A DNA stretch of 64,000 nucleotides from a bacterium. Lineage in GTDB: Bacteria > UBA8248. The notes beneath the pieces were generated by a model. That model did no database searches and was not told the origin of the DNA. It worked only from the letters and a program-made list of their open reading frames with translations. The position numbers were made by a program, and so were the translations under genes. Positions 33,008 to 64,000 of this stretch are shown in pieces; the first letter of the stretch is position 1, and each line of letters begins with the position of its first letter. The stretch is taken from the NCBI GenBank assembly GCA_965213685.1, contig CBDBZY010000016.1, positions 416,001-480,000 of the forward strand, given 5' to 3'.

Positions 33008-36000
33008 ATGAAGCTGAACTCACTGCACTCTCTTCCTCTGGTGCTGCTTGCCATCTGCATCTCTGTGGCTGCATATGGAGAACCACTACTGCTGGAGTCA
33101 TATGAGCACACAGTGTATGTGGACTGTAGCAACCCCAATGCCACTGATGATGCCACTTGTGGAAGCCACACCCACCCTTGTTGTACCTTCTCCTATGCTG
33201 TGAGTGAGCGAGTGCTGAACTCCACTCAGGTGGTGGTCAGCAGTGGAAACTACTCACTGAACTGCACAATCAGCTTGTCTGGGCTTACCAATATAGCCCT
33301 GATTGGTATTGTGAATGGGTCATCCCAACCTGTGGTGACAGTGACATGTGAATCTGGGGCAGGCCTCAGCTTTGTCCACTCCAGTGGCATCACTATCCAG
33401 AATGTGCACTTCTCTGGCTGTGGGGCTCTGCAGAACAGCACGAGCCGTAACTTCAGTGACCACAGCTTCTCCTTCATGCAGTTTCCTGTGGGCATGTACT
33501 TCCTGTTCTGTCAGCGCATCAACCTGACCGGAGTGAGTGTCACCAACAGCACAGGGACAGGAATGGCTGTGTATGCTACTGGTGGACTCAACTACATCCA
33601 CAACTGCAGTTTCCTCTATAACAGACCCCCCAACAACAACTGCAGTTTCCTAGAAAATACGCCATCAAGGTTTGGTGGGGGAGGTCTTTATATCGAGTTT
33701 CCCTACTGTTCACCCACAAATCAAACGAGTTGTACCACTATCCAGGATAGTGAGTATAACTCTAATGCATCCTACAATATATCCGAATCATTGTTCAGTG
33801 GGAACGTTGCACTAGAAACAGAGGCAAGCATTCATGAAAGCCAGTACAATTTTCTGCCCCCTGACCCCCACTATCACAACACTGCAGGGCATGGTGGTGG
33901 TATAGCACTGTACCTGTGCAGGGCAAATGATATTCATATCTCAGTCACTGAATGTAAGATAGAGCGTAACAAGGCCTACTTTGGTGGTGGTATTGTAGTA
34001 AGTTTTGAAGAGTACAGTGTGAACAATAGAGTAGAAGTGTTTGGTAGTACTTTCAGTGACAACCACTGTGTATACCGCAGTGCCTTTGGTGGTTCTGGTG
34101 GAGGGATGACAGTACTCTTCAAGTTCTCCTACCAAGCAAGCCACACACACAACAGTATGTCTGCGAACCACTCCCACTTTGCAAATAACACGGCATATTT
34201 TGGAGGGGGATCTGTCATCAAAGCATCTCCCGAGATGGAACAGACTGACCCCACAAACAGTGTGTACTTCAATGAGTGTGTCTGGACTGGGAATTACGGG
34301 ACAGTGGGAGCTGCTCTGTTAGCCTCAGCCTACAACATATCTGCCAAAAGAGGTGCCCTATTGAAACCTGTTTTTGAGAGCTGCACTTTTGAGAACAATA
34401 CTGGGGACATCCCTGGCATTGTCACAGCAGATTACCTTCCAATTGCATTCAGTACTAATGTTAAGTTTCTTAACAATGGAAATAGTTCTCAGGCTTCTTC
34501 CCCCCTCACTATTGACCAAACCCGTGTAGATTTCTTAGAGAACTGCCAGGCTACCTTCCATCACAACAAGGCAGCGTATGGTGGTGCCATATCACTTCAT
34601 GGGTATGCCTTCATAATAGTACACAGAAATACTTCTCTAAACTTCTCACGCAATTATGCACAGCGAGAAGGTGGAGCAATTTACCAGGATCCTACCAATA
34701 CCGGACTCCTAACCAGTGGAAACTGTTTTGTGCAGTATATAAATAGTTCTGTACATCCCAAAGACTGGGAAACCAACTTCATATTTGATTTTAATCGAGA
34801 AAATGTTCATACCTCTAACCCCGAGTGCAATGCAATGGTACTGGGTTCATTAATTCCATGCATTTGGAATGGCTACACATACAGTCGATCTCAGAATGAG
34901 ATGGTCTTGAGCAAAGTGTTCTGCAGTGATCGCAACAACTGGACATTTCGATCAAACTCTACTAATTGTAGCTGTAGCAATCAGACACGAACCTTACCAA
35001 ACAGAATGACAAATAAATCATTGAATGTGATCCCAGGGCTTCGCAGTCCTCTCAACATAACACTGCTTGATGACTACAGCAAAAATGTGACAAAATATGC
35101 AGTCCTCAATGTGTGGCCTGCCACTAACAGTGCCATAAGCTTACCTCCAAACGCCTTGTATGTAACTGATGACTCTCTAGTAATGTATGGTGAAAGCATG
35201 CATAATGGAACATTGGATGTTGACACTCTGCCTCCTCGCCATCTCTTTGCCTCTGTTCCTGTTCATTTCCAGCAGTGCCCACCTGGCTTTGTGCAGACCA
35301 ATACTACTGATGGACACAAAACCTGTAGCTGTGAAAGAGGAGGTTTTGAAGGCAGTGTGCAGTGTGATGGCAGTGGCAATGCCAACCTAAGACGAGGCAT
35401 GTGGATAGGCAAGGTGAGAAGCTCTGATGACTACGTAGTTGGGCAGAGCCCTCACATCAGGTCTGGTGCTTACTCAAGTGTAGTCCTTCCTCAGAACAAT
35501 GTATCTGCACTAGATGACCTGTTATGTGGGCAGCTGAACCGTGAGGGAACCCTGTGTGGTCGTTGCAAAAAAGGGTACGGTTTTGCAGTTAGTACATACA
35601 TCTGCCACCATAAATGTGTTCACTGTAAAGGCAATTCTCCTAAATACGGCTGGACATATGTAGCATTCGAACTCATACTTATCACAGGGTTTTTTCTTAT
35701 TGTAATGACATTCAACATAAGCGCCACTTCTGGTGCTATGAATGCCTTTGTGTTCTTTGCTCAGGTAATGGCAGGGAGCTTCTCTATTAATGCCTCTGGT
35801 GATATTCCACTTGAGACAATCACCCATCGTTCTGACAGCTTGGTAGAAATATATGCTTCGCTCTATGGTATTTGGCGTCTAGACTTTATCTTCCCCAACC
35901 TTTGTTTGTCTCCACATCTCACAGCACAAAACGCATATCTCTTGCTCTACTTCAAAGCAATCTATCCAGTCTTTTTAATTTTGGTTTTCCTTGCTGTGGT

Positions 36001-37087
36001 GTGGCTCCATGACCACGGAGTTCAGCCGTTCTACAGCTGTGGTAAGTGGGTCAGCAGGCAGCTGCGCAGGCTACGAAAACCATGGACAGTTCAGAAAACA
36101 GTGATACATGCACTAGCAACCTTCCTTGTGCTCTCCTTCACCAAATTCACAGAACTGTCATTCTTCATCCTAGCTCCAGCACGACTTATTCACCATGATG
36201 GCTCTATAGTCACCTGGGTACCACGATACTATGGAGAGCTCAAGTATCTTAGTGCTGTTCACATCCCATACTTTCTTGTTGCCACACTTTTCCTCATACT
36301 CTTTGTAATACTTCCAACTCTACTTCTTCTCTTGCTTCCTGCTAGGACGAAGTGGGGCAAGCTGTTCTTTAACAAGGCTTTCAAAATTCTTCATATTAAT
36401 CCAGATGGACGCTTGCACATTTTCTTGCAAACCTTCCAGGGGAGTTTCAAGGACGGTTCAGGCTCAAAGGGTGAAATAAATTGCCAAATATTTGCTGGCA
36501 TTTATTTGCTACTCCGATTTGTCATCTTCATGCTTGCATCACTGCTCCCATCAAGAGACTATCTTATCTACCAACAGTTTGTATGCAGCATAGCCATATT
36601 GCTCTTTGCTATCTTCAGGCCTTACCGCGAGAACCGCTACAACATCTTAGATATCAGTGCATTCACACTCCTCGGTACAATCAACCTACTCACCATATTC
36701 AACAGCCTCCTTGTGGCAGTGGATGTGGAGTTGTCTCCTGTGCTCTTCACTGTCCAGTATGTACTTGTCTTTGTGCCACTTATCATCATGATCATCTGGT
36801 TCTCGTACACTATCATCAAACACTGTTGTGGCAAACATATCAAACTGAAGAGTTTCCAATCGACTGACACACCCTCCACAATTGATTCTGCTTTCTTAGA
36901 TTTCAGGAGAGATGCAAGTCTACGAGAAGGAGAGAGCAGACACAGGAATCGCTGCATCAGTGCCAGGAAGAAGACACTTGAGTCCTATAATGTTGTGCAT
37001 GACTCAGCTGGAGGAGAGGAAGAGTGTAATGATGAGTCATCGCCACTGATTGCTAGTGGACCAACATATGGTGCTAATCAGCACTAG
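33008..37087 (+). CDS. Receptor-like protein A: signal peptide, Pmp-like beta-helix, Cys-rich stalk, multi-TM domain, tail type alpha
   Basis: Uninterrupted 1359-aa ORF; repeated GGG/GGAI and FxxN motifs; CPPGF and NREGTLCGRC; ~9 hydrophobic segments with an RPY..N motif. Confidence 0.9.
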   Translation: MKLNSLHSLPLVLLAICISVAAYGEPLLLESYEHTVYVDCSNPNATDDATCGSHTHPCCTFSYAVSERVLNSTQVVVSSGNYSLNCTISLSGLTNIALIGIVNGSSQPVVTVTCESGAGLSFVHSSGITIQNVHFSGCGALQNSTSRNFSDHSFSFMQFPVGMYFLFCQRINLTGVSVTNSTGTGMAVYATGGLNYIHNCSFLYNRPPNNNCSFLENTPSRFGGGGLYIEFPYCSPTNQTSCTTIQDSEYNSNASYNISESLFSGNVALETEASIHESQYNFLPPDPHYHNTAGHGGGIALYLCRANDIHISVTECKIERNKAYFGGGIVVSFEEYSVNNRVEVFGSTFSDNHCVYRSAFGGSGGGMTVLFKFSYQASHTHNSMSANHSHFANNTAYFGGGSVIKASPEMEQTDPTNSVYFNECVWTGNYGTVGAALLASAYNISAKRGALLKPVFESCTFENNTGDIPGIVTADYLPIAFSTNVKFLNNGNSSQASSPLTIDQTRVDFLENCQATFHHNKAAYGGAISLHGYAFIIVHRNTSLNFSRNYAQREGGAIYQDPTNTGLLTSGNCFVQYINSSVHPKDWETNFIFDFNRENVHTSNPECNAMVLGSLIPCIWNGYTYSRSQNEMVLSKVFCSDRNNWTFRSNSTNCSCSNQTRTLPNRMTNKSLNVIPGLRSPLNITLLDDYSKNVTKYAVLNVWPATNSAISLPPNALYVTDDSLVMYGESMHNGTLDVDTLPPRHLFASVPVHFQQCPPGFVQTNTTDGHKTCSCERGGFEGSVQCDGSGNANLRRGMWIGKVRSSDDYVVGQSPHIRSGAYSSVVLPQNNVSALDDLLCGQLNREGTLCGRCKKGYGFAVSTYICHHKCVHCKGNSPKYGWTYVAFELILITGFFLIVMTFNISATSGAMNAFVFFAQVMAGSFSINASGDIPLETITHRSDSLVEIYASLYGIWRLDFIFPNLCLSPHLTAQNAYLLLYFKAIYPVFLILVFLAVVWLHDHGVQPFYSCGKWVSRQLRRLRKPWTVQKTVIHALATFLVLSFTKFTELSFFILAPARLIHHDGSIVTWVPRYYGELKYLSAVHIPYFLVATLFLILFVILPTLLLLLLPARTKWGKLFFNKAFKILHINPDGRLHIFLQTFQGSFKDGSGSKGEINCQIFAGIYLLLRFVIFMLASLLPSRDYLIYQQFVCSIAILLFAIFRPYRENRYNILDISAFTLLGTINLLTIFNSLLVAVDVELSPVLFTVQYVLVFVPLIIMIIWFSYTIIKHCCGKHIKLKSFQSTDTPSTIDSAFLDFRRDASLREGESRHRNRCISARKKTLESYNVVHDSAGGEEECNDESSPLIASGPTYGANQH

Positions 37088-37399
37088 TACCTCAACTCTA
37101 CCTCCTGTTATTCTTGCATTGTCCTTTCTAGTATTGTTGCTTTTGTATTGTAGCATTAAGTGTATGTATTAATGTAGAATACATTCCTGTGTTTTTCCTA
37201 TGGGATATCAATGTTGTGCATAATTTACCCCCTTTGTTTAGCCTATACTGAGTGATGAGATTCTGCACTAATAGTTCACAGTTTGTTGAACTTACTGTAT
37301 GCATTACCTGCAAAATTTTGATGATACAAATACACTGCAGAAGAGCTCGAGTGTATTGTGTACATATTGCACGCAAAGTCTATATAGTAACAGCTACTC

Positions 37400-38800
37400 C
37401 CATATAATACAGCTATTTTGGGCTATGCTATGATAAGGAAGTGTTGTGATTGTGTAGCACATGGAAGGGAACCGTGGGCACTGCTACACAGGTACAACTC
37501 ACATAACAACGGTCTCTGAAAGGAACAGCTCTGTTACAATACCGTATGGCGCTTAGGTCTTTATCTTTGCGAATTTCGCGAACCTTGGAGGCATTCGCGA
37601 AATTTTGAGACTCCGCCCACCAAAAATCCGATCTCGCAAGCATTCTGAAGCCACGCCTTTAGCTAGCGTTAAGCGAGTTGCAAGCTGCTAGATGCAAATA
37701 TCTGATGAACACGGTATTGTAATCACGCACCGTTGCTGTAACCTCGGGAGCTGGCACGTCTGACAGCTTGCACTAAAGTTAGTATGTTCCGCCCACACTA
37801 TCGTGCCTGGGCGCGTAGCATCTAGCGCCTACGAGCGTGGGTGTGCTGAGCGAAATTAAAATGTCCAAAACAGCTTTTCGCGAAATTTTAGACCCACGAA
37901 ATACAAAGCGCCATACGGTATACGCTTCACTCTATGGTAGACTATTTGGTGTCTAGACTTCAGCATTTGTTTGCATCCACTACTCACAGCGCAAAACGCA
38001 TATCTTTTGCTCGTTCACCAAATTCACGGAAGTTTCTTTTATCATCTTAGCTCCAACATCGCTAATTCACAATGATGGTTCTATAGTCACCTGGGTACCA
38101 TGGTATTCGCTGGCATTTATATGCTCCTCTGATTTGTCATCTTCATGCTTGCATCACTGCTCCCATCAAGAGACAATCTTATCTACCAACAGTTTGTATG
38201 CAGCGTAGCCATAATTATTTCTTTGCTATCTTCAGGCCTTACCGCGAGAAATGTTAAAACATCTTAGATATCAGTGCATTCACACTCCTCGGTACAATCA
38301 ACCTACTCACCATATTCAGCAGCCTCCTTGTGACAGTGGTGGGTGTGGAGTTATCACCCATACCTATACTCTTCACTGTCCAGTATATGTACTTGTGTTT
38401 GTGCCACTTATCATCATGATCATCTGGGTCTCGTACACTATCATCAAACACTGTCTGTCTCGATGTATGGGTTCCAATGCATCTGAGAGGTCACCACTGG
38501 TGCCCTTCCCTAAAGACACAGATGATGAGACATCTGAAGCCCCTCCGTTGTTGTCTGCTGATGAGGAATACTGACTCTTTGTGAAGCAACACTAAACCAG
38601 TCCTATGGACAGTCAACCAGCTGAACATATGGAACCAATAGCAGTGACAGTTAAGCTGTTACTAGACTGTGTGTGCAATATGTGCACAATACACTCTTCT
38701 GCAGGTATATTTTTTCTGTTTTTGTTAGTGCGTATATAATTTTGCAGATAATGCGTACAGAAGTTCAACGAATCTCATCACTCAGTATAGGCTAACAAAG
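37400..38800 (+). pseudogene. Chimeric, internally deleted receptor pseudogene (B-type leader, A-type TM pieces, tail beta)
   Basis: 37405-37535 matches the 5' leader of the minus-strand genes; 37925-38452 matches gene A ~35855-36825 with deletions and frameshifts; 38453-38655 encodes CLSRCMGSNASERSPLVPFPKDTDDETSEAPP as in genes C-E. Confidence 0.85.
37542..37918. mobile_element. Tc1/mariner(pogo)-type MITE
   Basis: TA-ccgtatggcgctt ... aagcgccatacgg-TA. Confidence 0.85.
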
Positions 38801-39064
38801 GGGATATATATATATCAGAGAGTCGGTAGACTCTCTATGTAGGGATGGCGCCGACACGCCCATAGTGCGTGTACATAGGAAAGCCTTCTTAACTGGCGAA
38901 CGCTCGCGTTCTAAGCCTTTCTGGGCCCCTAGCTATTCTATTCCAGTGATTCTCTACCCAACAATACCCCCCAAGTAGCTAAAATGCATCCCTTGACATA
39001 CTACCAGAAAACTCTCCGAAGGTCGTTTTGTCTTTCTTCCTATTCTTCTTCTTCTTCTTCTTAA

Positions 39065-39638
39065 GGCAGGACGACCCTAAGACATGATTTTGCCTGATTT
39101 ATGTTTTATTGTATTCTCCTAATGATGCCTGTTAGCGAAATAACGTAGTTTTGCGTGATATGTCGGTTCATAGAATTATAAAACTTACGCAATATGCATA
39201 TCGCTTATTATAGAAAAAAAATTTGCCAATAACGGCTAATGCTGCAGAGACGAAACTTCGGTGGATGATTACTAAGCATGTTGGCTATCTAAGTTTGCTT
39301 TAAAAATCCGTGCTAAATCTTTCTTTCTAGACATATAATCGTTTTCTTCGTGCTGCAGAATTTAGAAAAACGGTAGCAAATTCTGCCGTAAAGTAGCAAG
39401 CCAAGCCTCGAGCAACCCATTGCGCATAAACTAGTTCACTCCCCTTTGGCGAGCATCCACCTCTTCACCGGTTGGCGCCACACAGCGCCGCACGTCCAAC
39501 GGTAGCGGGAAATATGAATTCTTTCCCAGCGAATTTGCAACCGCGCCAAAGAATTGCTGTCGTTTTAGCGTTGGTAAATGTAGGGGGAAAGCGACGGTAG
39601 AGTAATTGACGAAGAACGCAATCATGACTCGTCCTCCC
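39065..39638. mobile_element. TTAA-targeting MITE (Kolobok/piggyBac-type)
   Basis: TTAA-ggcaggacga ... tcgtcctccc-TTAA; single TTAA at the empty site near 16477. Confidence 0.8.
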
Positions 39639-39727
39639 TTAAGAGATTTCTTTAGACTAACGTATCTCAAAACTGGCTGAAGTAATCACCGTAGTTCTTC
39701 AACGGATCCACTGTAATCACTACCAAG

Positions 39728-42136
39728 TTTTTTTTTTTTTTTTTTTTTACTGGAGAAAGGACAAATAACAAATGCAAGGATGAGGCGAATACCATACAGA
39801 GCAAATAAAGCCATTCAAAACAAACAAAAAAAATAAGTATACAGTATATGAAACTAAACTGTTCACGCATGACACACAAAGGTTTACAAATGGCAGGAAA
39901 GACCTGCCTCAGAAGTAACAAGGTCAATAAGAGGAACCGGCTGCCTCATCGCGTGGCCAACAGTAGAACGAGCACCTCTAATACACCGGATGGATGATCG
40001 TAGGAGGGAAAAAGAGAGAGCACATCTGATCCAGGCAATAGTGGAGCTGTAGGGCTGGTCATGTTTGGAGGAGAGCATGGAGGCAAGCCTCTTGTAACAG
40101 ACAGTGGCAACTTTTCCCAAACCTCCAGTGAGTGACAGGACGAGTGGAGTGAATGAGCTGTGCTCAATTTCACGGACCCTCTGTTCATAGGCACGTTTTT
40201 TTATGTTCTCATGCTTTCTGTAGCAAGTAGCAAGAGGTTGCCTGTTTGAGGGAGCATATGGGTTAAAAACCCTTACATCAAAGAAAGCTCTCTCATACTG
40301 GCCTCCCCAAAAGCCACTGGCAGCCACATCCAATCTGGCACCGTCCTCAGTGATGGCAGAGGAACTGGCGAAAGTTTCCCCAGTGAGTGGCTGAAGGGAA
40401 GGTTCTATTGAGACGTCATGGCAGACTTCTGACAGTAGGTTAGCAGTGAGGTCTCGGATCTCATTGTGTCTTAAGGTAGGGAAGCCACCTTTCTGACAGG
40501 AGAGGACATGCTCCAGGGAGAAGTTGACACCACAGGCACAGATTGCAGGGGTATTCAGTGGTTGCCAGCCATACCGGATGGCAATGGCATCTCTGAAAGC
40601 TCCCTTGTGGAGAGTGAATCCAAATTCTTCCAAAGGGAGGGCCGTGAGCCAGCTAGAGGCTCCTTTTTCCTGGGCAAGGTCTATTGCACGTTGTGTAGAA
40701 GTATCGACAGTAGCTCTGAGAGTTGCTGCGGTAGCCTTTGTTCTCTCACGATTTTGCTTGTGAACTTCTATCTTGGCTGTCAGTTGTGCCTCAATGCACT
40801 CAAGGGGGTATTCAGAACATTGTTGTAATATGAGGTCTTTCAGTGGTGCAGCTATCTTAGTGGATGAAAGATATTCGTGGGTCAAGAGAAGTGTGGGATT
40901 AGTAATGCCAAGGCCACCCAGTCTCACAGGCAGAGAAAATAACTCACGATCAGTGTCATTGGAAGGAGCTCTACCAGTTAGAACAGGGATGAAATGGAAT
41001 CTAATGTATTCTTCCAGGGGCTGCAGCAGCAACTCAATGTTGGGGGTAGTTCTACACAGATATGAGAATTTGTGCACATAGCCATGTGTGTAGGCTGCAA
41101 AAGCCACATGTGGCTGAACTCTGGCAACATCAACTAGTTGTGTTAGCTCTTTCTTCCACTGCTGAACTTTTTCAATGACAAAACTGTTGGTAAACTCATC
41201 TGAACCTATAGCAGACCCAAGATATGCTCTGCCATCTGAAGTGATATTAACCTGCGTATCCTGAAAAATATTTCTAGCATTTTCAAGGTGTGTGTCCTTC
41301 GTCACAAGCCAGGTTTTCTTGGCATTCCCAAAGTAACTAAAGGCAGGTCCAGCGGAAGTGAGGTTATCCCACCAAACACGTAGGGATGTCAGTGATCCTG
41401 AAGCGGCAGCATCATCTGCATACCAGACCTGCATATTACTGGATGTACTGCTCAAATACTTGATAAGTGGAATGGTTGCCAGGGCGTACATGGGCATTGC
41501 CAGAGGGTCTCCCTGGGTAGTGCCCTCCTCTGAGAGCAGGGTGTGCCCATCCACATAGAGATCAGAAGAATCACGGTAGATGTTGATGAGGATGGTCGCT
41601 AAGGCAGGACAAAGATATCTGATGTTGTGCAAGGCAGATTCACGGTTGAGGGCATTGAATGCGTTGGTTGCATCAACAAGCAGAACAGCTTCTGTTTCCT
41701 CCTGTTGAAAGAAGGCTCTCAAAGCATGAATGGCAGCTTCTGTTCCAGCTGTTTGCCCAGCACATAGCTGTAGTGGCCCTACTGCCTCTTGTAGATCTGC
41801 TCTGGTGATAAGGAGGACTGCTTTGGAAACGATTCGTCTTGCAGTCTCACAAATGCCAATTGGCCTCACCCCAGGGCACTTGTCCAATGCAATGAGACGA
41901 CAAGCAAGAAACGCAGCCAGGCCCTTCGGGTCTACAAAAGTGGAGCATATCCTTCTAGCCAGCAGGGCAAGGGAGAGACATAGGTCCTGTGAGGCAGACT
42001 TAAAGGAGGTGCAAAGCCTCCTCCAGCAATGTGCATCAATCCCAGAGGGACCGGCTGCACCTCTGGTGCGAAGGGCCGCAGAGCGAATTGCAGTAGCATC
42101 GATCTGATCAAACACTACTGGGTGAAGTAGGGGTGC
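39728..42136 (-). mobile_element. 5'-truncated non-LTR retrotransposon with RT and restriction-like endonuclease (CRE-like)
   Basis: RPIG, DATNAFN, QGDPL and YADD RT motifs; CACG..HVLSC, RHNEIRD and RLDV..FFDVRV RLE motifs; 21-nt poly(A) at 39728-39748; TSD atcactaccaag at 39716-39727 and 42137-42148. Confidence 0.95.
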
Positions 42137-42271
42137 ATCACTACCAAGTACGATCTGTGCTAATAAAACTCTTAGTACGTTCCCAAATGGGCAGAAACTA
42201 GAAGTCCCCGACAACTTCCCATATTTGGGAAACCATTTTGTAATAGTTACTGTCACGTGGCGCAAACGGTA

Positions 42272-42833
42272 AGGTAGGGGCGGGGGTTTCTGGAAGGGGT
42301 GGGGTTCCCGGACACTGCCACTGAGTTTCTCTGAACGAATAAGCTTTCGGTCACCGTTCTTGGTACAAACATAAGAGTGTTCACTTAGCTCTGGCCCAGT
42401 GCTGTCTCCCTTGACCGTCTTTCAGAGATGCACGGAGAAAATCACGGCATGGATATTATAGACTACGTAATCTACGTAGCTTTTCCGTGTTATCTCTGAA
42501 AAAACGATCGAGGGAGACGGCACTGCACCATTGCAGAAGAGCTAAGTGAACGCCCTTATCTTTGCGCGTAGTCTATAGTATCTAGGGTTGTGGACTTTCA
42601 AAAGCGAGAGTGTCCGGGAACCCCCGCTGTTTTGATTTTTGGGAAATCTAGAACAACGGCCCAACAACGCTGAGCTGAAGTTCTAGATTTGCTTCAAACT
42701 TGGACCGTAAGTAGCCCACTCATACACGAGCTTATAAATAGCAGTAGCACTACTGGCTTCAAAGTACACTTGAAATATAGGGCTTAATACGGAAGCCACT
42801 ACAAAGTTTGTCCGGGAACCCCCGCCCCTCCCT
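42272..42833. mobile_element. MITE with G-rich TIRs, TA/TAA TSD
   Basis: aggtaggggcgggggtttc / gaacccccgcccctccct; empty site cggtaagcac in copy 1 (~16265). Confidence 0.8.
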
Positions 42834-43599
42834 TAAGCACGTGAGGGCGGGCCTCGCGAAGCCACGCCTATTAATTATAGGTTCGCGAGACGTAGCAAAG
42901 GCTGCTTCATATCTGATGGCGCGTTCGAGCAGCGTCTTACTTCACTATACTATTATGTAGCGGGGATGAGTTGGCCAGTTAGATACAGTGAGGTACATAT
43001 GTAGCTACTCTAGCTCAAGAATTTTTAGAGGGGCTCAGCCCCCAACTTCAGAAATGATGGTGTTCAAGCCCCTCCCTACCCGCCTTAGCAATGGCTGTTA
43101 TGACCACTGATTTGTTTGCTGGACTCTGAAAGAAGCTTCAGTGGCAAGAACAATACTTTTTAATGGTACCCTTGTGCAAAAAAAGGGATGCAAACAAGTA
43201 TGAAAAACATTTTCAAAAAATGTATAGGGATGTAGAGATGGCCGTGCCAAAAACTACAGAAACTAGATGTAGGGATGGCAGTGTGGAGACAAGACATGTT
43301 ATACAAAGACTACACAACTAACCCCATCCCTACATCTTTTTTTTTTGGCTCAAAAATTGCTCTTCCCAGTAATCTTGTAGCATAACTCGCAGAATGATTT
43401 CAGATAATTATAAAAAAAGATGTAGGAATGGGGTTAGTTGTGTAGTCTTTGTATAACATGTCTTCCCTGCATACTGCCATCCCTACATCTAGTTTCTGTA
43501 GTTTTTGGCACGGCCATCCCTACATCCCTATACATTTTATGAAAATGTTTTTCACACTTGTATATATATAATACAACATTGATATATATCCCAAAAATG

Positions 43600-43980
43600 T
43601 ATCCTAAATACAATACTAGGAAGGACAATTCAAGAATAACAGGAGGTAGAGTTGAGGTACTAGGGCTGATTAGCATCGTATGTTGGTCCACTAGCAATCA
43701 GTGGTGATGACTCATTATTACACTCTTACACACCACCAACACCAAACCAGTCCTATGGACAGTCAACCAGCTGAACATTATGGCAGTTACTATATAGACT
43801 GTGTGTGCAATATGTACATAATACACTCTTCTGTAGGTTTACCTTTATTCTAATGTATTGTATTTTGTTAGTGAATATCAAAATTTTGACCATGAATGTA
43901 TACAGTACGTTCAACAAACTGTGATATTGGTACAGAATCTCATCACTCAGTATAGGCTAATTATAAACAAAGGGGTATAC
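43600..43980. pseudogene. Fused fragments of receptor 3' ends (alpha on -, beta on +)
   Basis: 43640-43725 matches the reverse complement of 37023-37110; 43729-43980 matches tail beta (acaccaccaacaccaaaccagtcctatggacag) and its 3' UTR. Confidence 0.75.
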
Positions 43981-44086
43981 ACACAAGATTAATATCCCAT
44001 ATGAAAAACAGAAGAATGCATGCTAAATACAAAGCAACAATACTAGAAAGGACAATGCCAGAATAACAGGAGGCAGAGTTGATGTG

Positions 44087-47000
44087 CTAGTGCTGATTAG
44101 CACCATATGTTGGTCCACTAGCAATCAGTGGCAATTCATCGTTACATTCTTCCTCTCCTCCAGCCAAGTCTGGCACAACGTTATAGGACTCAAGTGTCTT
44201 CTTCCTGGCAATGGTGCAGCGATTCCTGTGCCTGTTCTCTCCTTCTCGTAGACTTACATCTCTCCTGAAGTCTAGGAAAGCACAATCAATTGTGGAGGAT
44301 GTGTCAGTCAATTGGAAACTCTTCAGCTTGATATGTTTGTCACAGCATGACTTGAGAGACTGTTTGTTGTTCTTGACTATTCGATATATTACATAACAGA
44401 TCATGTAGAAGAGAGGACAGAAGATGAGGATATACTGAAGTGCAAAGGCCCAACTAGAGAGTGGAATGCCTATTGCTGTGTGATACATGTTGATCATACT
44501 GAGAACATTGATCAGTGCAAGGATTCCAAGAATTGTGGCATCAACATTATTGTAAAAGTCTTTCTTGTATGGTCTGATGACAGTAAATAGGAGAATTCCA
44601 ACTGTGCACACCATCTGCTGGACAACATACTGGTGGAACCAGATGCCAGTATACATGAAAGAGGTGAATATTATTGTGCGCAGAAGGAAATAGAGCCCAG
44701 CAAAGTATCGGCAATCTCTTGTTCCATTTGTTCCATCTTTAAAGCAACCTTGGAATGTATCGAGAAACATCTGCATACGTCCACCAGCTTGGAAAAACTG
44801 CCCACAGCAGCCAAACCTTATAGTCAGACTCTCTAATAACTTTAAGGGGTAGACAAAGAGGATCAGAGGTGGGAGTAGTACGAATGTGATCATCACAAAC
44901 ATGGCCATTATGAAACATGGGATGTGCTCCTTGCCAAGGTATTCTGTGCCTCCTTGAAAATAGAGATGATTACCTGCTCTTGGTCCTGTGGAGTCCTGCA
45001 CAGTTGTAGGAGTGAGCAGGTAGGTAGAAACCACAGTGAACTTGGTATATGAAAGGACAAGAAATGTGGAAAAAGCGTCAATGGTGGATCTATTCAAGTT
45101 CCAGCGTCGTTGGAATGAGCCAAAAATACGATGCACTGGTTTACAGAGACAGAAGATTGGCTGTATGCCACGTTCATACAGTGACACTGTGCAGTAGAAT
45201 ACCAGTATCAGAAGCAGAGGATAAACAGCAAGGACATAGTGTAGAGACAACACTCCTAGGGTGTCTACATCAGGGCTGATGCAGAAAGGTGGCACAACGG
45301 AAGTGAAAAAGTTCAGATTCCAAATGTCGTATGGTACTTCATAGATCTTTTGCAGAGTAATGGCACTGCTAGTGACGTTTCTTATAGGGACAGTCTTATC
45401 TCCATCTATATCGAATGTTGTTGTTAGCAGTTGAGCAAAAAAGATGAAGCCATTTGCGCTGCCTCGAGTAACACTGATGTGGAAGAGGACAACAATGAAG
45501 AAGAATATAGTGATAGGGAGGATCTCTAACAGCAGGTAATAGACCCAGTGGTACAGGGCCTGCTTGTGAGTGCACTTCACACAGTCAAAGGTATTTGAGT
45601 TGATGGCAGGGGCATACCCTTTAAGACACTGTCCACAAAACATTCCTGTCCTGTTAACAGGATGGCAGAGCACTTGATCTAGCTCAGAACTTTTGTTGGG
45701 TAGCTTCACATACTCCTCCTCCATATGCACAGCAGTGTAGGGGCACATCCCCACAACAAGCTGGCCAGACGACTCGTCTATCCCCATCCACTGCCCTCTC
45801 CTCAGTTTCACTGAGAAATCCGCCTGATTGCACCTCACCACTCCACCATAGTTACCAGTACACACACACCGTGTGTTGTTGTGTGTGTCATTCTGAGGGG
45901 AAAATCCCGGGGGGCAGGGAAGAATTTCTACTACAATTTCAGTGTAGAGCACCCGAGGATTGATTGTTTCTATTGCTAGCAGAGCAGTTGAGTTTGGTTC
46001 TCCAGTTAGCTCAATAGTATTGTCGGAAACACAGGTATAGGCACTTGGAATCTGCGCAGTGTCTGGAGAGTGTGACCTCAACAAGAACACAGCATGAGCA
46101 GTTTGGTTTTTCATATTGTCCCCCAAAACCTCAAGAGGCATCAACTGTCTCTTCCCCAGTATGACCTCTATATGGTAGGATGAATCATTCTCTGTGTTAT
46201 TGAAGGCAGCTGGAGCGCTAGATATAGCGTCTGAACAGTTACCTCCGTCATGCTTCCATGTATCATTCCAACAAAACACATCTTTACGAGGATCTGAGAT
46301 CACTTTCGTGGACATTGGGTTATGGTATCCCCAAAGACAGGGAAGAAGAGATGTGCTATATATAGCATTCCCACCATCGCTGTACAGAGCAGTATTTCCC
46401 CTGAAGTAGAAAGTGGCTGTCCAGCTCCACGGCTGTAGTAGAGGGTCACTGTACTGGATGAAGCACATGCCAAACAGCTGCTGCATATGCTGCCCAACAA
46501 TGTAGGAGTATATGGCGCCACCATACTTGTCAGCTTTGTTGTCAATGAATATCATTTGTGTGTAGTTGTAAACACGAATGTAGGAGGAGCTATAGAGGGC
46601 AATGGCACCGCCAGTCCTGCCCTGGTTTCCAGTGAAGTTAGCGATGCAGTTATCTAAGAAATGCACACCACTGTCAACAACAGCCAAAGCCGATCTGTTA
46701 TTGTTTTCAAAATGGACACTATTATTAAAATGTAGAGGAAGTTTCTGTGTGTTAATTGTACCAACACCTATGGGCTCCCCGAGTATGGACACCACACTGG
46801 GATAGTCAGTATTCCCTATGAATATGCAGTCAGTGAAAACTGGATTTGTAATGGCGCCTGTCCAATCTACTGACCGCTCTGATAAGTCCATTGCACTACC
46901 AACTCTGCCAAGGTTGTATAGCCATGAACAGTTGTAGAACAGTAATCTGTTGGTAGCCAGGCTCCTGCTTCTCTCTCTGGCTGTGTCGAAGTATACCCCT

Positions 47001-48172
47001 CCCCCCCAGTACGCCCAGTTGTGTTGGAAAGTGCAGTTTTGAAAGAGCATGTTATTGAGGCTCATACGGGAATCGTTACTGAAATGGAACCCAAGTTTCA
47101 TTCCTCCACCACCTGTAGCTTGGCCAGTTGTTGCAGTAGCGTTGTAGAGGTATGCAGTGTTGTTATATATTATACAGGAGTCCATTGTGAATGTGCTGTT
47201 CCAACTCAGATGCTGGAACTCTACAAACACTCCTCCTCCCCACTCCGCCTCATTGTTCTCAAACACACACCTTTCCACTGCCACTGAGCTGTTCTCAACT
47301 TCACTGAAGAACACACTCAGGCCTCCTCCGTGACCGAATGTCAGGTGGTTCGTGTCCTGGGGCAGGAGGTAGATGTACTCCACTGGGTGCCACATGTGCC
47401 CACGATTGCCCCCAAACACACACTCACTGATCCTGTACTCCACTCCTGTGCTGTACTGTGGGGGGATGGAGGTGTTGCCTGCGTCACAGTCGCTAGGGAG
47501 TTGGGGGTCACAGAAGGGAAATTCGATGTATAGACCCCCTCCACTAGGAACCATTTCATTGTTGGGGGGTCTGTTATAGAGGAAACTGCAGTTGTGGATG
47601 TAGTTGAGTCCACCAGTAGCATACACGGCCATTCCTGTCCCTGTGCTGTTGGTGACACTCACTCCAGTCAGGTTGATGTGCTGACAGAACAGGAAGTACA
47701 CGCCCACAGGAAACTGCATGAAGGAGAAGCTGTGGTCACTGAAGTTACGGCTCGTGCTGTTCTGCAGAGCCCCACAGCCAGAGAAGTGCACATTCTGGAT
47801 AGTGATGCCACTGGACTGGACAAAGCTGAGGCCTGCCCCAGATTCACACGTCACTGTCACCACAGGTCGGGATAACCAATTTACAAATGGGTCAACACCA
47901 GTCAGGGCTATACTAGTTAATCCAGATAAGCTAATCATGTGGTTCAGTGAGTAGTCTCCACTACTCACCTCCACCTGAGTGGAGTTTAGCACTCGCTCAC
48001 TCACAGCATAGGAGAAGGTACGACAAGGGTGGGTGTGGCTTCCACAAGTGACATTGTCACTGGCATTGGGGTTGCTACAGTCCACATACACTGTGTGGTC
48101 ATAGTGAGCAAAGGAGAGGGCACTATGCAGCACAGCTGCCACCAGCAGCCAGAACAACCTCTCAGATGTCAT
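44087..48172 (-). CDS. Receptor-like protein B (B-type body, tail alpha)
   Basis: Open ORF; probable start MTSERLFWLLVAAVLHSALS at 48172, by comparison with C and D. Confidence 0.9.
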   Translation of the reverse strand: MTSERLFWLLVAAVLHSALSFAHYDHTVYVDCSNPNASDNVTCGSHTHPCRTFSYAVSERVLNSTQVEVSSGDYSLNHMISLSGLTSIALTGVDPFVNWLSRPVVTVTCESGAGLSFVQSSGITIQNVHFSGCGALQNSTSRNFSDHSFSFMQFPVGVYFLFCQHINLTGVSVTNSTGTGMAVYATGGLNYIHNCSFLYNRPPNNEMVPSGGGLYIEFPFCDPQLPSDCDAGNTSIPPQYSTGVEYRISECVFGGNRGHMWHPVEYIYLLPQDTNHLTFGHGGGLSVFFSEVENSSVAVERCVFENNEAEWGGGVFVEFQHLSWNSTFTMDSCIIYNNTAYLYNATATTGQATGGGGMKLGFHFSNDSRMSLNNMLFQNCTFQHNWAYWGGGVYFDTARERSRSLATNRLLFYNCSWLYNLGRVGSAMDLSERSVDWTGAITNPVFTDCIFIGNTDYPSVVSILGEPIGVGTINTQKLPLHFNNSVHFENNNRSALAVVDSGVHFLDNCIANFTGNQGRTGGAIALYSSSYIRVYNYTQMIFIDNKADKYGGAIYSYIVGQHMQQLFGMCFIQYSDPLLQPWSWTATFYFRGNTALYSDGGNAIYSTSLLPCLWGYHNPMSTKVISDPRKDVFCWNDTWKHDGGNCSDAISSAPAAFNNTENDSSYHIEVILGKRQLMPLEVLGDNMKNQTAHAVFLLRSHSPDTAQIPSAYTCVSDNTIELTGEPNSTALLAIETINPRVLYTEIVVEILPCPPGFSPQNDTHNNTRCVCTGNYGGVVRCNQADFSVKLRRGQWMGIDESSGQLVVGMCPYTAVHMEEEYVKLPNKSSELDQVLCHPVNRTGMFCGQCLKGYAPAINSNTFDCVKCTHKQALYHWVYYLLLEILPITIFFFIVVLFHISVTRGSANGFIFFAQLLTTTFDIDGDKTVPIRNVTSSAITLQKIYEVPYDIWNLNFFTSVVPPFCISPDVDTLGVLSLHYVLAVYPLLLILVFYCTVSLYERGIQPIFCLCKPVHRIFGSFQRRWNLNRSTIDAFSTFLVLSYTKFTVVSTYLLTPTTVQDSTGPRAGNHLYFQGGTEYLGKEHIPCFIMAMFVMITFVLLPPLILFVYPLKLLESLTIRFGCCGQFFQAGGRMQMFLDTFQGCFKDGTNGTRDCRYFAGLYFLLRTIIFTSFMYTGIWFHQYVVQQMVCTVGILLFTVIRPYKKDFYNNVDATILGILALINVLSMINMYHTAIGIPLSSWAFALQYILIFCPLFYMICYVIYRIVKNNKQSLKSCCDKHIKLKSFQLTDTSSTIDCAFLDFRRDVSLREGENRHRNRCTIARKKTLESYNVVPDLAGGEEECNDELPLIASGPTYGANQH

Positions 48173-52782: not shown

Positions 52783-55700
52783 CTATTGGTTCCATATGTT
52801 TGGCTGGTTGACTGTCCATATATAGGACTGGTTTGGTGTTGGTGGTTTTCTCTGAACCAGAGGAGACTGGTCTGAGCTCCCTCTTGTGCTGGTCTTGGTG
52901 ACACTCTGCTGTGTTGAAGAGCGTGCATAGCTCTGTGAGCTGCTCTGAGCTTCTTCACTTGAGTTGGTGCTGGTGGTGGAGTTAGTGTGCTTGGGTCGGT
53001 AGCGATTCCTCTCGCGGTCCCTCCCAAAAGCTTCCACGCCCTCCACAAAGAGTCGGTATTCCTCATCAGCAGATGACAAAGGAGGGGCTTCAGATGTCTC
53101 CTCATCTGTGTCTTTAGGAAAGGGTACCAGTGGTGACCTCTCAGATGCATTGATACCTATACATCGAGACAGACATGACCTAAAAGACAGTTTGCTGTTC
53201 TTGGCTATTCGGTATATTACATAACAGATCATGTAGAAGAGAGGACAGAAGATGAGGATATACTGAAGTGCAAAGGCCCAACTAGATAGTGGAATGCCTA
53301 TTGCTGTGTAATGGATGTTGTTCATACTGAGAACATTGATCAGTGCAAGGATTCCAAGAATTGTGGCATCAACATTATTGTAGAAGTCTTTCTTGTATGG
53401 TCTGATGACAGCAAATAGGAGAATTCCAACTGTGCACACCAACTGCTGGACAACATATTGCTGAAAATATGTGGAAGTATAGATATAGGAAGTGAATATT
53501 ACTGTGCGCAGAAGGAAATAGAGCCCGGCAAAGTATCGGCAATCTCTTGTTCCATTTGTTCCATCTTTAAAGCAACCTTGGAATGTATCGAGAAACACCT
53601 GCATACGTCCACCAGCTTGGAAAAACTGACCACAACAACCAAGCCTTCTAGTCAGACTCTCTACTAACTTCAGTGGGTAGACGAAGAGGATCAGAGGTGG
53701 GAGTAGTACGAATGTGATCATCACAAACATGGCCATTATGAAGTATGGGATGTGCTCCTTGCCAAGGTATTCTGTGCCTCCTTGAAAATAGAGATGATTA
53801 CCTGCTCTTGGTCCTGTGGAGTCCTGCACAGTTGTAGGAGTGAGCAGGTAGGTAGAAATCACAGTGAACTTGGTATATGAAAGGACAAGAAATGTGGAAA
53901 AAGCATCAATGGTGGACCTATTCAAGTTCCAGCGTCGTTGGAACGAGCCAAAAATACGATGCACTGGTTTACAGAGACAGAAGATTGGCTGTATGCCACG
54001 TTCATACAGTGACACTGTGCAGTAGAACACCAGTATCAGAAGCAGAGGATAAACAGCAAGGACATACTGTAGAGACAGCATTCCTAGGGTGTCTACATCA
54101 GGGCTGATGCAGAAAGGTGGCATAACAGAAGTGAAAAAGTTCAGATTCCAAATGTCGTATGGTACTTCATAGATCTTTTGCAGAGAATTGGCACTGCTAG
54201 TGACGTTTCTTATAGGGACAGTCTTATCTCCATCTATATCGAATGTTGTTGTTAGAAGTTGAGCAAAAAAGATGAAGCCATTTGCGCTGCCTCTAGTAAC
54301 ACTGATGTGGAAGAGGACAACAATGAAGAAGAATATAGTGATAGGGAGGATCTCTAACAGCAGGTAATAGACCCAGTGGTACAGGGCCTGCTTGTGAGTG
54401 CACTTCACACAGTCAAAGGTATTTGAGTTGATGGCAGGGGCATACCCCTTAACACACTGTCCACAAAACATTCCTGTCCTGTTAGCAGGATGGCAGAGCA
54501 CTTGATCTAGCTCAGAACTTTTGTTGGGCAGCTTCATGTACTCCTCCTCCATATGCACAGCAGTGTAGGGACACAGCCCCACAACAAGCTGGCCTGATGA
54601 CTTGTCTATCCCCATCCACTGCCCTCTCCTCAGTTTCACTGAGAAATCCGCCTGATTGCACCTTACCACTCCACCATAGTTACCAGTACACACACACTGT
54701 GTGTTGTTGTGTGTGTCATTCTGAGGGGAAAATCCCGGGGGGCAGGGAAGAATTTCTACTACAATTTCAGTGTAGAGCACTCGAGGATTGATTGTTTCTA
54801 TTGCTAGCAGAGCAGTTGAGTTTGGTTCTCCAGTTAGCTCAACAGTATTGTCTGAAACATAGGTATAGGCACTTGGAATCTGCGCAGTGTCTGGAGAGTG
54901 TGACCACAAGTTGAACACAGCATGAGCAGTTTGGTTTTTCATTCTGTCACCCAAAACCTCAACAGGCATCAACTGTCTCTTCCCCAGTATGACCTCCATG
55001 TGGTAGGATGAATCATTCCCTGTGTTACTGAAGGCAGCCGGAGCGCTGGATATATCGTCTGAACAGTTACCTCCATCATATTCCCATGCACTGCTCCAAC
55101 AAAACACTTCCTTGCTGGGGTCGGGAACATTTTTCTTGGACATTGGGGTATAGTATGCCCAAAAACAAGGTACAAGAGATGTGCTATATATTGCATTCCC
55201 ACCATCGCTGTACAGAGCAGTATTCCCCCTGAAGTAGAAAGTGGCTGTCCAGTTCCACGGCTGTAGTAGAGGGTCACTGTACTGGATGAAGCACGTGCCA
55301 AACAGTATTAACATATGCTGCCCAACAATGTAGGAGTATATGGCACCACCATACTGGCTGGCTTTGTTGTCAATGAATATCATTTGTGTGTAGTTGTAAA
55401 CACGAATGTAGGAGGAGCTATAGAGGGCAATGGCACCGCCAGTCCTGCCCTGGTTTCCAGTGAAGTTAGCGATGCAGTAATCTAAGAAATGCATACCGCT
55501 GTCAACAACAGCCAAAGCCGATCTGTTGTTGTTTTCAAAATGGACACTATTATTAAAATGTAGAGGAAGTTTCTGTGTGTTAACTGTGCCAACGCCTATG
55601 GGTTCCCCGAGTATGGGCACCACACTGGGATAGTCAGTATTCCCTATGAATATGCAGTCAGTGAAAAGGGGAATTGTGATGGCACCTGTCCAACCTAATG

Positions 55701-63357: not shown

Positions 63358-64000
63358 TTAACTATCACTGCTAATGGTTCCATATGTTCGGCTGGTTGAC
63401 TGTCCATAGGACTGGTTTGGTGTTGGTGGTGTTCTCTGAACCAGAGGAGGCTGGTCTGAGCTCCCTCTTGTGCTGGTCTTGGTGACACTCTGCTGTGTTG
63501 AAGAGTATGCATAGCTCTGTGAGCTACTCTGAGCTGCTTCACTTGAGTTGGTGCTGGTGGTGGAGTTAGTGTGCTTGGGTCGGTAGCGATTCCTCTCGCG
63601 GTCCCTCCCAAAAGCTTCCACGCCCTCCACAAAGAGTCGGTATTCCTCATCAGCAGATGACAAAGGAGGGGCTTCAGATGTCTCGTCATCTGTGTCTTTA
63701 GGAAGGGGCACCAGTGGTGACCTCTCAGGCACATTGGTACCCATACATCGAGACAGACATGACCTAAAAGACTGGTCGTTGTTCTTGACTATTCGGTATA
63801 TTACATAACAGATCATGTAGAAGAGAGGACAGAAGATGAGGAGATACTGAAGTGCAAAGGCCCAACTAGTGAGTGGGATATCCATTGCAGCATAAAAGAT
63901 GTTGTACATACTGAGGACATTGATCAGTGCAAGGATTCCAAGAATTGTGGCATCAACATTATTGTAGAAGTCTTTCTTGTATGGTCTGATGACAGCAAAT
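63358..64000 (-). CDS. Receptor-like protein E, 3' part (continues beyond window)
   Basis: Near-identical to the 3' end of D at an offset of 5291 bp. Confidence 0.9.
   Translation of the reverse strand, partial: FAVIRPYKKDFYNNVDATILGILALINVLSMYNIFYAAMDIPLTSWAFALQYLLIFCPLFYMICYVIYRIVKNNDQSFRSCLSRCMGTNVPERSPLVPLPKDTDDETSEAPPLSSADEEYRLFVEGVEAFGRDRERNRYRPKHTNSTTSTNSSEAAQSSSQSYAYSSTQQSVTKTSTRGSSDQPPLVQRTPPTPNQSYGQSTSRTYGTISSDS

What the first reader, a model, noticed from the sequence alone, without database searches (positions are those of the whole stretch)
36820..44345. Reciprocal swap of cytoplasmic tails between two divergent receptor types
Seen: all four body/tail combinations exist. A-body+alpha (gene A); B-body+alpha (gene B, KHIKLKSFQ..GPTYGANQH almost identical to A although the bodies are very divergent); B-body+beta (C, D, E); A-body+beta (pseudogene, IIKHC|LSRCMG). 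Both switches fall at the Cys just after the last TM. Inference: recombination at this juxtamembrane point re-pairs ectodomains with alternative signalling tails, like paired activating/inhibitory receptors. Both tails carry Tyr motifs (SYNVV; EEYRLF).
Basis: partly seen in the sequence, partly recalled or inferred. Interest (0 to 1): 0.8.

Follow-up and report, generated by a model that had tools for sequence, protein, structure and literature searches.

The report
Reciprocal tail swap in sponge receptor-like genes
Two neighbouring, tail-to-tail genes of a large uncharacterised sponge membrane-protein family have exchanged their cytoplasmic tails at exactly the same codon, most likely through one small inversion, in a gene cluster that is a patchwork of exchanged pieces.

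Summary
All four body/tail combinations exist, and both switches fall in the same Cys codon after the last membrane helix (A 36824-36826, pseudogene 38452-38454, B 44345-44347). The shared tail comes from recent exchange, not constraint. A and B tails have dS 0.19, while their bodies are saturated. Contigs from other sequencing studies bridge all three junctions.

The window is not bacterial. It is a eukaryotic, probably sponge, contig inside a chimeric bacterial assembly. The genes are intronless and about 1,400 aa long: signal peptide, PMP-repeat beta-helix, Cys-rich stalk, about 9 membrane helices, then the tail.

Relatives elsewhere show that A-body+alpha and B-body+beta are the original pairings. 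B (B+alpha) and the pseudogene (A+beta) are therefore the derived chimeras. They are also the only adjacent convergent pair in the cluster. One inversion with both breakpoints in that codon explains both (about 0.55). Two separate conversions is the main rival.

The swap is not a recurrent hotspot. Among 1,828 comparable protein pairs only A/B shows it. The cluster has other junctions elsewhere (N-terminal module, G's stalk). Neither tail has an ITIM or ITAM, so the paired-receptor reading stays speculative. Moderate interest.

The parts
33008..37087 (+). Gene A: intronless CDS, A-type body + alpha tail (1359 aa)
   Evidence: ORF list. Pfam Chlam_PMP. Identical to database protein P0001.
33101..33637 (+). 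N-terminal module of A, homogenised with B/C/D (nt identity 0.93-0.94, dS 0.13)
33602..33673 (+). Imprecise junction between the shared N-module and the A-type ectodomain. A 12-codon tandem duplicate: a B-type NCSFLYNRPPNN followed by an A/G-type NCSFLENTPSRF.
   Evidence: nucleotide and protein strings of A-G side by side
36824..36826 (+). Junction codon TGT (Cys) in A, the pivot shared by all copies
36827..37087 (+). Alpha tail of A (86 aa + stop)
37088..37394 (+). Alpha-type 3' flank shared with B. Positions 37230-37395 are the reverse complement of the immediate 3' flank of beta genes.
37401..37921 (.). Dispersed repeats with many copies on contigs C41 and C64. Not a gene-specific 5' flank.
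   Evidence: raised depth
37919..38454 (+). Pseudogene psi: three A-type TM-domain fragments (76-90% nt identity to A 35850-36826) with internal deletions and frame breaks
38452..38454 (+). Junction codon TGT in psi (A-type to beta)
   Evidence: bridged by X7 record 18
38455..38810 (+). psi beta tail (91-92% nt identity to C/D/E, about 200-nt internal deletion after ..DEEY) and beta-type 3' flank
38813..39912 (.). Very high-copy repeats (transposable elements)
   Evidence: depth table; (copy at 16480-16723)
39884..42421 (-). 845-aa reverse-transcriptase ORF of a retroelement
   Evidence: Pfam RVT_1 at E 3.5e-5, below the gathering score.
42020..43561 (.). High-copy repeats, including a hairpin-like inverted repeat at 43194-43561
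43610..43738 (-). Third, partial alpha-tail copy (last 79 nt of the CDS plus flank). It is closer to A than to B at several sites.
43783..44086 (-). Alpha-type 3' flank of B
44087..44344 (-). Alpha tail of B (85 aa + stop)
44345..44347 (-). Junction codon TGC in B (B-type body to alpha)
   Evidence: bridged by X1 record 8 and X8 record 32
44348..48172 (-). Body of gene B (B-type, 90-92% aa identity to C/D/E)
52783..56997 (-). Gene C (B-type body + beta tail)
58067..62296 (-). Gene D (B-type body + beta tail)
63358..64000 (-). 3' part of gene E (B-type + beta). The gene continues beyond the window (C16 479358-483662).

Best explanation
The interval holds the 3' ends of two convergent members (A, B) of a tandem cluster of intronless genes. 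The genes are eukaryotic, probably from a sponge. Each encodes a signal peptide, a PMP-repeat beta-helix ectodomain, a Cys-rich stalk, about 9 membrane helices and a cytoplasmic tail.

The original pairings were A-type body with alpha tail and B-type body with beta tail. A tandem duplicate of A (call it A2, now the pseudogene psi) lay tail-to-tail with B. One inversion had both breakpoints in the conserved juxtamembrane Cys codon, where only the TGY triplet is shared as microhomology. It flipped the DNA between the two genes and so exchanged their tails reciprocally. A2 became A-body+beta and later decayed to psi. B became B-body+alpha and kept an open frame.

The unaffected paralogues A and C/D/E preserve the parental forms, which is why all four combinations coexist.

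What is shown: recombinant origin, polarity, junction position, adjacency and orientation. What is inferred: that it was a single inversion, the microhomology or paired-arm mechanism, the cytoplasmic location of the tail, and any change in signalling.
For: (1) Recent exchange rather than constraint. For A vs B the alpha tail has dS 0.19, while the body is saturated. The non-coding 3' flank is shared. (A,B) as a clade is rejected for the stalk/TM segment (AU p 3e-7).

(2) Polarity. 8 of 8 nearest non-self relatives of A's TM region carry alpha-class tails (CCGK/CCGR start in some, D..F[LV].F, no EVEAFGRDRERNRYRP). 11 of 11 printed B-type relatives (P0002, P0152-P0161) carry the canonical beta motif.

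(3) Both junctions lie in the same codon at 3-nt resolution and are seamless and in frame.

(4) psi (+) and B (-) are adjacent and are the only convergent neighbours among the eight cluster genes. This is the arrangement an inversion between the two junctions must leave.

(5) Divergences fit one event after the duplications. psi body vs A is 76-90% nt identical, and alpha(B) vs alpha(A) is 91.8%. beta(psi) vs C/D/E is 91-92%, and B vs C/D/E bodies are 91-94%.

(6) A third alpha-tail relic (43610-43738) lies in minus orientation next to B's alpha flank. That is expected if a block that once followed A2 on the plus strand was flipped.

(7) The junctions are bridged by contigs of other runs.
Against: No un-inverted haplotype or outgroup locus was found. 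The alpha tail occurs nowhere else in the collections searched. The interval between psi and B is now almost entirely transposable elements, so its former orientation cannot be read.

The divergence figures fit two separate conversions equally well. The chance that two independent recipients would be exactly psi and B is only about 1 in 8 by simple counting. A breakpoint without flanking homology in both genes needs an additional assumption, either pairing of the inverted arms or selection for in-frame products.

The AU test on the short tail partition did not reject (B,C,D,E) as one side of a branch (p 0.216). That constrained tree is only one rearrangement away from the best tree, and the partition has few columns.

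All dS values for tails rest on 85 codons.
Confidence: 0.55

Rival explanations
1. Two independent non-reciprocal events (gene conversion or ectopic repair). An alpha tail with its flank was copied from A or an A-type copy into B. Separately, a beta tail with its flank was copied from a B-type gene into an A-type copy. Both tracts started at the juxtamembrane Cys codon because only in-frame exchanges at this domain boundary survive, or because the conserved Cys motif acts as a local hotspot.
For: The cluster shows many non-reciprocal patches. The N-module is homogenised in all seven genes. The ecto1 segment is about 0.3% divergent among B-F. Local switches occur between B~C and B~E, and there is a D-specific patch. 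Donors for both tails still exist. The divergences are compatible.
Against: It needs the same codon to be hit twice without flanking homology. The other junctions in the cluster are imprecise, with a 12-codon duplicate in A and a 16-aa filler in G. It does not explain why the two recipients are the one convergent adjacent pair, or why an extra alpha relic lies inverted beside B. No further swap was seen among the 1828 comparable pairs and the 40 high-identity pairs.
Confidence: 0.3
2. Functional reading of the first reader: the swap created a paired-receptor-like set. The same B-type ectodomain is coupled to a Tyr-motif tail (C/D/E) or to an alternative tail (B), giving opposite or different signalling, and the arrangement is maintained by selection.
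For: B vs C/D/E bodies are 90-92% identical while the tails are unrelated in sequence. B's frame is open. The alpha tail has dN/dS of about 0.3 between A and B. Alpha lacks both aromatic positions of the conserved beta motif: DEEY..F becomes DSAF..F, and N.Y.P becomes N.C.
Against: No ITIM, ITSM or ITAM occurs in any tail. No expression data exist. The reciprocal product decayed to a pseudogene. There is no recurrence in the family sample. The function of the family is unknown.
Confidence: 0.12
3. Artefact: the junctions are assembly chimeras between paralogues, or the pattern reflects strong constraint on an ancient shared tail.
For: The window comes from a chimeric assembly that mixes bacterial and eukaryotic contigs. 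The region is repeat-rich.
Against: Contigs from three other-coded studies bridge the three junctions with 0-4 other letters. Synonymous divergence and shared non-coding flanks exclude constraint.
Confidence: 0.03

Closest known systems
Paired activating/inhibitory immune receptors shaped by gene conversion or recombination (Siglec-11/16, PMC5701461, abstract seen in the listing; CEACAM families, PMC2832619, abstract seen; KIR/Ly49 recalled from memory)
   Same: Neighbouring paralogues have near-identical ligand-facing parts and unrelated cytoplasmic tails. The ectodomain segments are homogenised by gene conversion (the N-module here). The chimeras were created by recombination within a gene cluster.
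   Different: The proteins are multi-pass (about 9 TM) with a beta-helix ectodomain, not single-pass Ig or lectin receptors. They have no ITIM, ITAM or adaptor-recruiting charged TM residue. No immune role is known. The exchange looks like one reciprocal inversion rather than repeated conversion. The organism is a sponge.
Chlamydial polymorphic membrane proteins (Pfam PF02415 Chlam_PMP; PMC11166332 and PMC10715098, abstracts seen)
   Same: GGA(I/L/V)/FxxN-type repeats forming a right-handed beta-helix (Pfam hits).
   Different: There is no autotransporter beta-barrel. Instead there is a Cys-rich stalk plus about 9 helical TM segments and a cytoplasmic tail. The genomic context is eukaryotic.
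Inversions between inverted paralogous sequences that create hybrid genes (general genome-rearrangement mechanism; recalled, no paper read)
   Same: Two convergent paralogues and one inversion, with both reciprocal hybrids retained in cis.
   Different: The breakpoints lie in a 3-nt microhomology at a domain boundary rather than in a long homologous tract. One product remained an open gene.
JAMP (Pfam PF05571, JNK1/MAPK8-associated membrane protein)
   Same: One family member (P0186) matches the JAMP profile over the Cys-rich stalk and first TM helices (E 2.7e-6, 27.7 bits against a cut-off of 25).
   Different: The window's own proteins give no JAMP hit at E up to 10. These proteins are four times longer, with a large ectodomain and more helices.

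Membership tests
Paired activating/inhibitory receptors | Members with near-identical ectodomains but different cytoplasmic/signalling parts | tested here: met
   B vs C/D/E body is 90-92% aa identical, with no tail similarity.
Paired activating/inhibitory receptors | Inhibitory member carries ITIM/ITSM in its tail | tested here: not met
   A regex scan of alpha, beta and gamma tails found 0 ITIM and 0 ITSM.
Paired activating/inhibitory receptors | Activating member has an ITAM or recruits an ITAM adaptor | tested here: not met
   0 ITAM in any tail. Adaptor recruitment is not testable here.
Paired activating/inhibitory receptors | Opposite signalling outputs demonstrated | not testable with these tools
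   No expression or biochemical data are available.
Chlamydial Pmp autotransporters | PMP repeats / beta-helix passenger | tested here: met
   Chlam_PMP E 2e-10 to 2.7e-6 and Beta_helix E 7e-10 to 2.7e-8.
Chlamydial Pmp autotransporters | C-terminal autotransporter beta-barrel | tested here: not met
   The AF2 model of A 816-1360 is helical with about 9 TM helices (pLDDT 85.8). Hydropathy agrees.
Mosaic multigene cluster evolving by ectopic recombination/gene conversion | Segment-wise discordant phylogenies with significant support | tested here: met
   Segment trees. AU tests reject (A,G) in stalk/TM (p 0.0057), (F,G) in ecto2 (p 2.5e-4), (F,G) in ecto1 (p 1e-43) and (A,B) in stalk/TM (p 3e-7).
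Mosaic multigene cluster evolving by ectopic recombination/gene conversion | Low synonymous divergence confined to the exchanged tracts | tested here: met
   For A vs B, N-module dS is 0.13 and tail dS is 0.19, while the body is saturated.
JAMP (PF05571) | Significant match to the JAMP profile | tested here: inconclusive
   P0186 passes the cut-off over profile positions 18-124. A and B give no hit at E up to 10.

The most novel reading that the evidence does not exclude
Sponges hold a very large, so far unnamed family of beta-helix/9-TM surface proteins that diversifies by in-frame exchange of modules between neighbours. The inversion-made B gene would couple a B-type ectodomain to a tail lacking the family's conserved Tyr motif. 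That would be an independent, non-Ig invention of paired-receptor logic for recognising microbes or non-self in an early-branching animal.
Probability: 0.1. Interest if true: 0.75.

Novelty: new variant of a known kind. Interest (0 to 1): 0.4.

Why it matters
The finding gives a clean, nucleotide-resolved example of how one small inversion between convergent paralogues can re-pair an ectodomain with a different cytoplasmic tail while keeping both products. It lies in a family of sponge membrane proteins that is very large (7,774 cluster representatives at E <= 0.001), that no source in these searches names beyond 'hypothetical protein' or 'predicted outer membrane repeat protein', and whose TM domain has no clear solved counterpart.

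If the family acts in recognition, the cluster shows how sponges generate receptor diversity. On its own, however, tail or domain shuffling in tandem gene families is a familiar process.

The window also flags a bacterial genome record whose low-GC, ORF-poor contigs (about 5 Mb of 7.97 Mb by my sum of the contig table) look eukaryotic.

Tried and rejected
- **Expression.** No RNA holder was listed for the stretch.

- **Names and taxa of relatives.** The protein atlas gave only 'hypothetical protein', Eukaryota/Porifera.

- **Alpha tail elsewhere.**
  - The 5.8-billion-protein search (longer proteins) found only the window's own A.
  - Metagenome contigs and genome contigs gave no confirmed locus. 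No outgroup or un-inverted locus could therefore be examined.

- **Fold of the TM domain.** Foldseek against the PDB gave no match at E <= 0.001. VIA-align wide gave a best Z of 7.3 with none at 8 or above, all generic helical bundles.

- **Literature.** Searches found no paper on this sponge family. One search gave the paired-receptor comparisons.

- **Earlier notes.** None exist for this genome.

- **AU test on the tail partition.** (B,C,D,E) was not rejected (p 0.216). I relied on distances and dS instead.

- **Considered and rejected.**
  - Alpha as the antisense reading of beta. Alpha aligns with the canonical tail in the forward sense (IDSAFLDF..GESRHRNR vs IDDEYRQF..GRDRERNRY), and A-type relatives have alpha-class tails.
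  - Exon shuffling through a present-day intron. All ORFs run uninterrupted through the junction.
  - 37401-37535 as psi's own 5' flank. It is a dispersed repeat.
  - Two other protein pairs with similar bodies and dissimilar tails (P0213/P0220, P0013/P0196). These are ordinary divergence, not swaps.
Full report
**Where the window comes from.** The window is G000:C16:416001-480000. G000 is filed as one prokaryote genome (7.97 Mb, 71 contigs), but it is a mixture.
- Most contigs have about 65% GC, and ORFs of 200 aa or more cover 0.87-1.0 of them.
- C2, C7, C16, C18, C41, C51, C56, C64 and a few small contigs have 42-54% GC and ORF coverage of 0.1-0.4.
- C16 carries reverse-transcriptase elements, very high-copy repeats and tandem arrays of long intronless genes.
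- Several runs that hold the stretch are labelled sponge metagenome.
- The protein atlas places the nearest clusters in Eukaryota/Porifera, though the phylum is known for only one member per cluster.

I therefore read the window as host DNA, probably sponge, that was binned with a bacterium.

**The genes.** The window holds A (33008-37087, +), a decayed copy psi (37919-38810, +), B (44087-48172, -), C, D, and the 3' end of E (all -). On C16 the cluster continues with E (479358-483662, -), F (484774-489270, +) and G (491835-496271, +).

Each protein has these parts:
- a signal peptide;
- a right-handed beta-helix with Chlam_PMP repeats (Pfam);
- a Cys-rich stalk;
- a helical membrane domain;
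- a tail.

An AlphaFold2 model of A residues 816-1360 is confident (pLDDT 85.8, pTM 0.83). Together with hydropathy it gives nine membrane helices. A signal peptide, nine helices and basic residues after helices 3, 5, 7 and 9 place the tail in the cytoplasm. This is inference, not shown.

The family is very large. A profile of A-D finds 7,774 cluster representatives at E <= 0.001 and 2,231 at E <= 1e-30, nearly all 1,250-1,480 aa long. No source gives a meaningful name. The TM fold has no convincing solved counterpart. One relative passes the Pfam JAMP cut-off over the stalk and first helices, but the window's proteins do not.

**The observation.** It holds as described. In the alignment of all six copies, A-type and B-type body sequences are barely alignable up to one Cys codon. 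Alpha and beta sequences are barely alignable after it. The codon TGT/TGC is the only shared triplet at the join. The positions are A 36824-36826, psi 38452-38454 and B 44345-44347.

| Comparison | nt identity | dS | Source |
|---|---|---|---|
| A vs B tail (85 codons) | 0.918 | 0.19 | |
| A vs B body (1018 codons) | 0.467 | saturated (pS 0.80) | |
| B vs C body | 0.936 | 0.146 | |
| B vs C tail | 0.37 | not alignable | |

At the protein level the A and B tails are 86% identical. The similarity of A and B continues about 300 nt into non-coding 3' flank. Purifying selection on an ancient tail therefore cannot explain it.

Contigs of public runs bridge every junction:
- A: X1 record 2 and X8 record 25.
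- B: X1 record 8 and X8 record 32, with 0 other letters.
- psi: X7 record 18, with 0 other letters.

X1 may be the source sample. X7 and X8 are from other studies.

**Which forms are ancestral.**
- The eight nearest non-self relatives of A's TM region (41-57% identity) all have alpha-class tails. Features are a CCGK/CCGR/CCGS start in three of them, a D..F[LV].F core with Phe, and no EVEAFGRDRERNRYRP (8 of 8).
- B-type relatives printed (P0002, P0152-P0161, 11 of 11) carry the canonical beta tail: C..RC, SER..LLS, DEEY[RQ].FA.EVEAFGRDRERN.Y.P.
- F's nearest relative, P0168, has a gamma-like tail.

So A+alpha, B+beta and F+gamma are the old pairings. B (B+alpha) and psi (A+beta) are the derived chimeras. 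Alpha, beta and gamma are still faintly alignable in the forward sense. They are old diverged versions of one tail, not unrelated sequence.

**How the swap happened.** psi and B lie next to each other, tail to tail. Only transposable elements separate them: very high-copy repeats at 38709-39912 and 42020-43825, and an 845-aa RT ORF. They are the only convergent neighbours among the eight genes.

An inversion whose two breakpoints lie in the junction codon of two convergent genes exchanges their tails reciprocally. It leaves exactly this arrangement, with both joins at the same position and in frame.

The divergences agree with one event after the local duplications:
- psi vs A body is 76-90% nt identical, and alpha(B) vs alpha(A) is 91.8%.
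- beta(psi) vs C/D/E is 91-92%, and B vs C/D/E bodies are 91-94%.

A third, partial alpha-tail copy (43610-43738, minus strand) sits just beyond B's alpha flank. It retains A-like states where B has changed. It is most simply a relic of further A-type array material that was flipped together with the tail.

I put this model at about 0.55. The main rival is two independent conversions that both begin at this codon (0.3). It fits the abundant non-reciprocal patches in the cluster. It needs the same codon to be hit twice without flanking homology, and it does not explain the adjacency.

There is no homology around the breakpoint beyond the TGY triplet. The mechanism is therefore inferred to be microhomology-mediated joining or template switching, possibly helped by pairing of the two inverted gene arms.

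**The swap in context.** The cluster is a patchwork.
- An N-terminal module of about 180 codons is homogenised in all seven genes (A vs B dS 0.13). In A its 3' edge is an imprecise join with a 12-codon duplicate, one copy B-type and one A/G-type (33602-33673).
- The next ectodomain segment is about 0.3% divergent among B, C, D, E and F, yet about 1.9 substitutions per site away from A and G.
- G has an A-type ectodomain. It switches at the Cys-rich stalk, through a 16-aa filler, to an F-type stalk, TM domain and gamma tail. AU tests reject (A,G) in stalk/TM (p 0.0057) and (F,G) in ecto2 (p 2.5e-4).
- A and E each have their own signal-peptide region.

Module exchange is therefore common here, but it uses several different breakpoints. 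The juxtamembrane codon is not a demonstrated hotspot. Among 228 family proteins with a definable tail:
- 1 of 1,828 comparable pairs (A/B) has a tail more than 10 points more similar than its body.
- 3 of 40 pairs with bodies at least 80% identical lack tail similarity, and all three involve B.
- Two other low-tail pairs are ordinary divergence.

This sample is cross-genome and de-replicated, so within-genome recurrence in the host remains untested.

**Function.** The beta tail carries the motif conserved among B-type relatives: EEY..F, a YxxPhi match, followed by GRDRERNRYRP. Alpha has Phe and Cys at the two aromatic positions and a different YxxPhi (SYNVV). Gamma has neither. No tail has an ITIM, ITSM or ITAM.

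B therefore presents a C/D/E-like ectodomain and TM domain with a different cytoplasmic tail. This resembles the logic of paired receptors such as Siglec-11/16 or CEACAMs (PMC5701461 and PMC2832619, abstracts seen). It fails their defining motif tests, and there are no expression data.

B's open frame and the alpha dN/dS of about 0.3 are weak signs that it is still used. The reciprocal product decayed.

**Verdict.** The recombinational origin is secure. A single reciprocal inversion is the best explanation but is unproven. A recurrent swap point and paired-receptor function are not supported. This is a tidy new variant of a known evolutionary process in an uncharacterised sponge gene family, of moderate interest.

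Noticed in passing
whole assembly G000 (window = C16:416001-480000): The 'prokaryote' genome is a mixture. About 65% GC, ORF-dense bacterial contigs sit alongside 42-54% GC, ORF-poor contigs (C2, C7, C16, C18, C41, C51, C56, C64 and others, together about 5 Mb by my sum of the table) that look eukaryotic.
   Followed up: partly
window 33101-33673: The N-terminal module of about 180 codons is 93-94% nt identical between A and B/C/D, although the rest of the body is saturated. In A it ends in a 12-codon tandem duplicate, one copy B-type and one A/G-type.
   Followed up: yes
C16:491835-496271 (gene G) and C16:484774-489270 (gene F), outside the window: G is a chimera of an A-type ectodomain and an F-type stalk, TM domain and gamma tail, joined through a 16-aa filler. 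F shares an almost identical early ectodomain segment with B-E, then diverges. F and G share a third tail type.
   Followed up: yes
window 37230-37395 and 43795-43960: The 3' flank of alpha-tail genes contains, about 130 nt after the stop, the reverse complement of the immediate 3' flank of beta-tail genes (70-78% identity). It may be a footprint of an older rearrangement.
   Followed up: partly
window 43610-43738 (-): A third, partial alpha-tail copy lies downstream of B. It has one in-frame TAA and is nearer to A than to B at several sites.
   Followed up: partly
window 38709-39912 and 42020-43825; RT ORF 39884-42421 (-): Extremely high-copy repeats, with word depth up to about 10^6 against about 150 for the unique flanks in run X1, and a retroelement ORF fill the space between psi and B.
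   Followed up: no
C16:178675-375533: About 30 tandem, same-strand ORFs of about 700-790 aa. Each ends in a hydrophobic segment and an almost invariant C-terminus..GDLSPESDDETSCDSTE. This is another expanded single-exon membrane-protein family.
   Followed up: no
window 52783-52830 (end of gene C): The last ~12 residues of C (IWTVNQPNIWNQ) differ from those of D/E (GQSTSRTYGTNSSDS) although the rest of the tail is over 90% identical. A frameshift or indel near the stop is likely.
   Followed up: no
C64:671406-675326, 812725-814650, 819156-820655, 103838-105205, 235958-237709: Distant members or fragments of the same family (26-33% identity) lie on another host contig.
   Followed up: no
A residues 816-1360 (window 35450-37084): The confidently predicted 9-helix membrane domain has no convincing match among solved structures. 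Foldseek gave nothing at E <= 0.001, and the best VIA Z was 7.3.
   Followed up: partly
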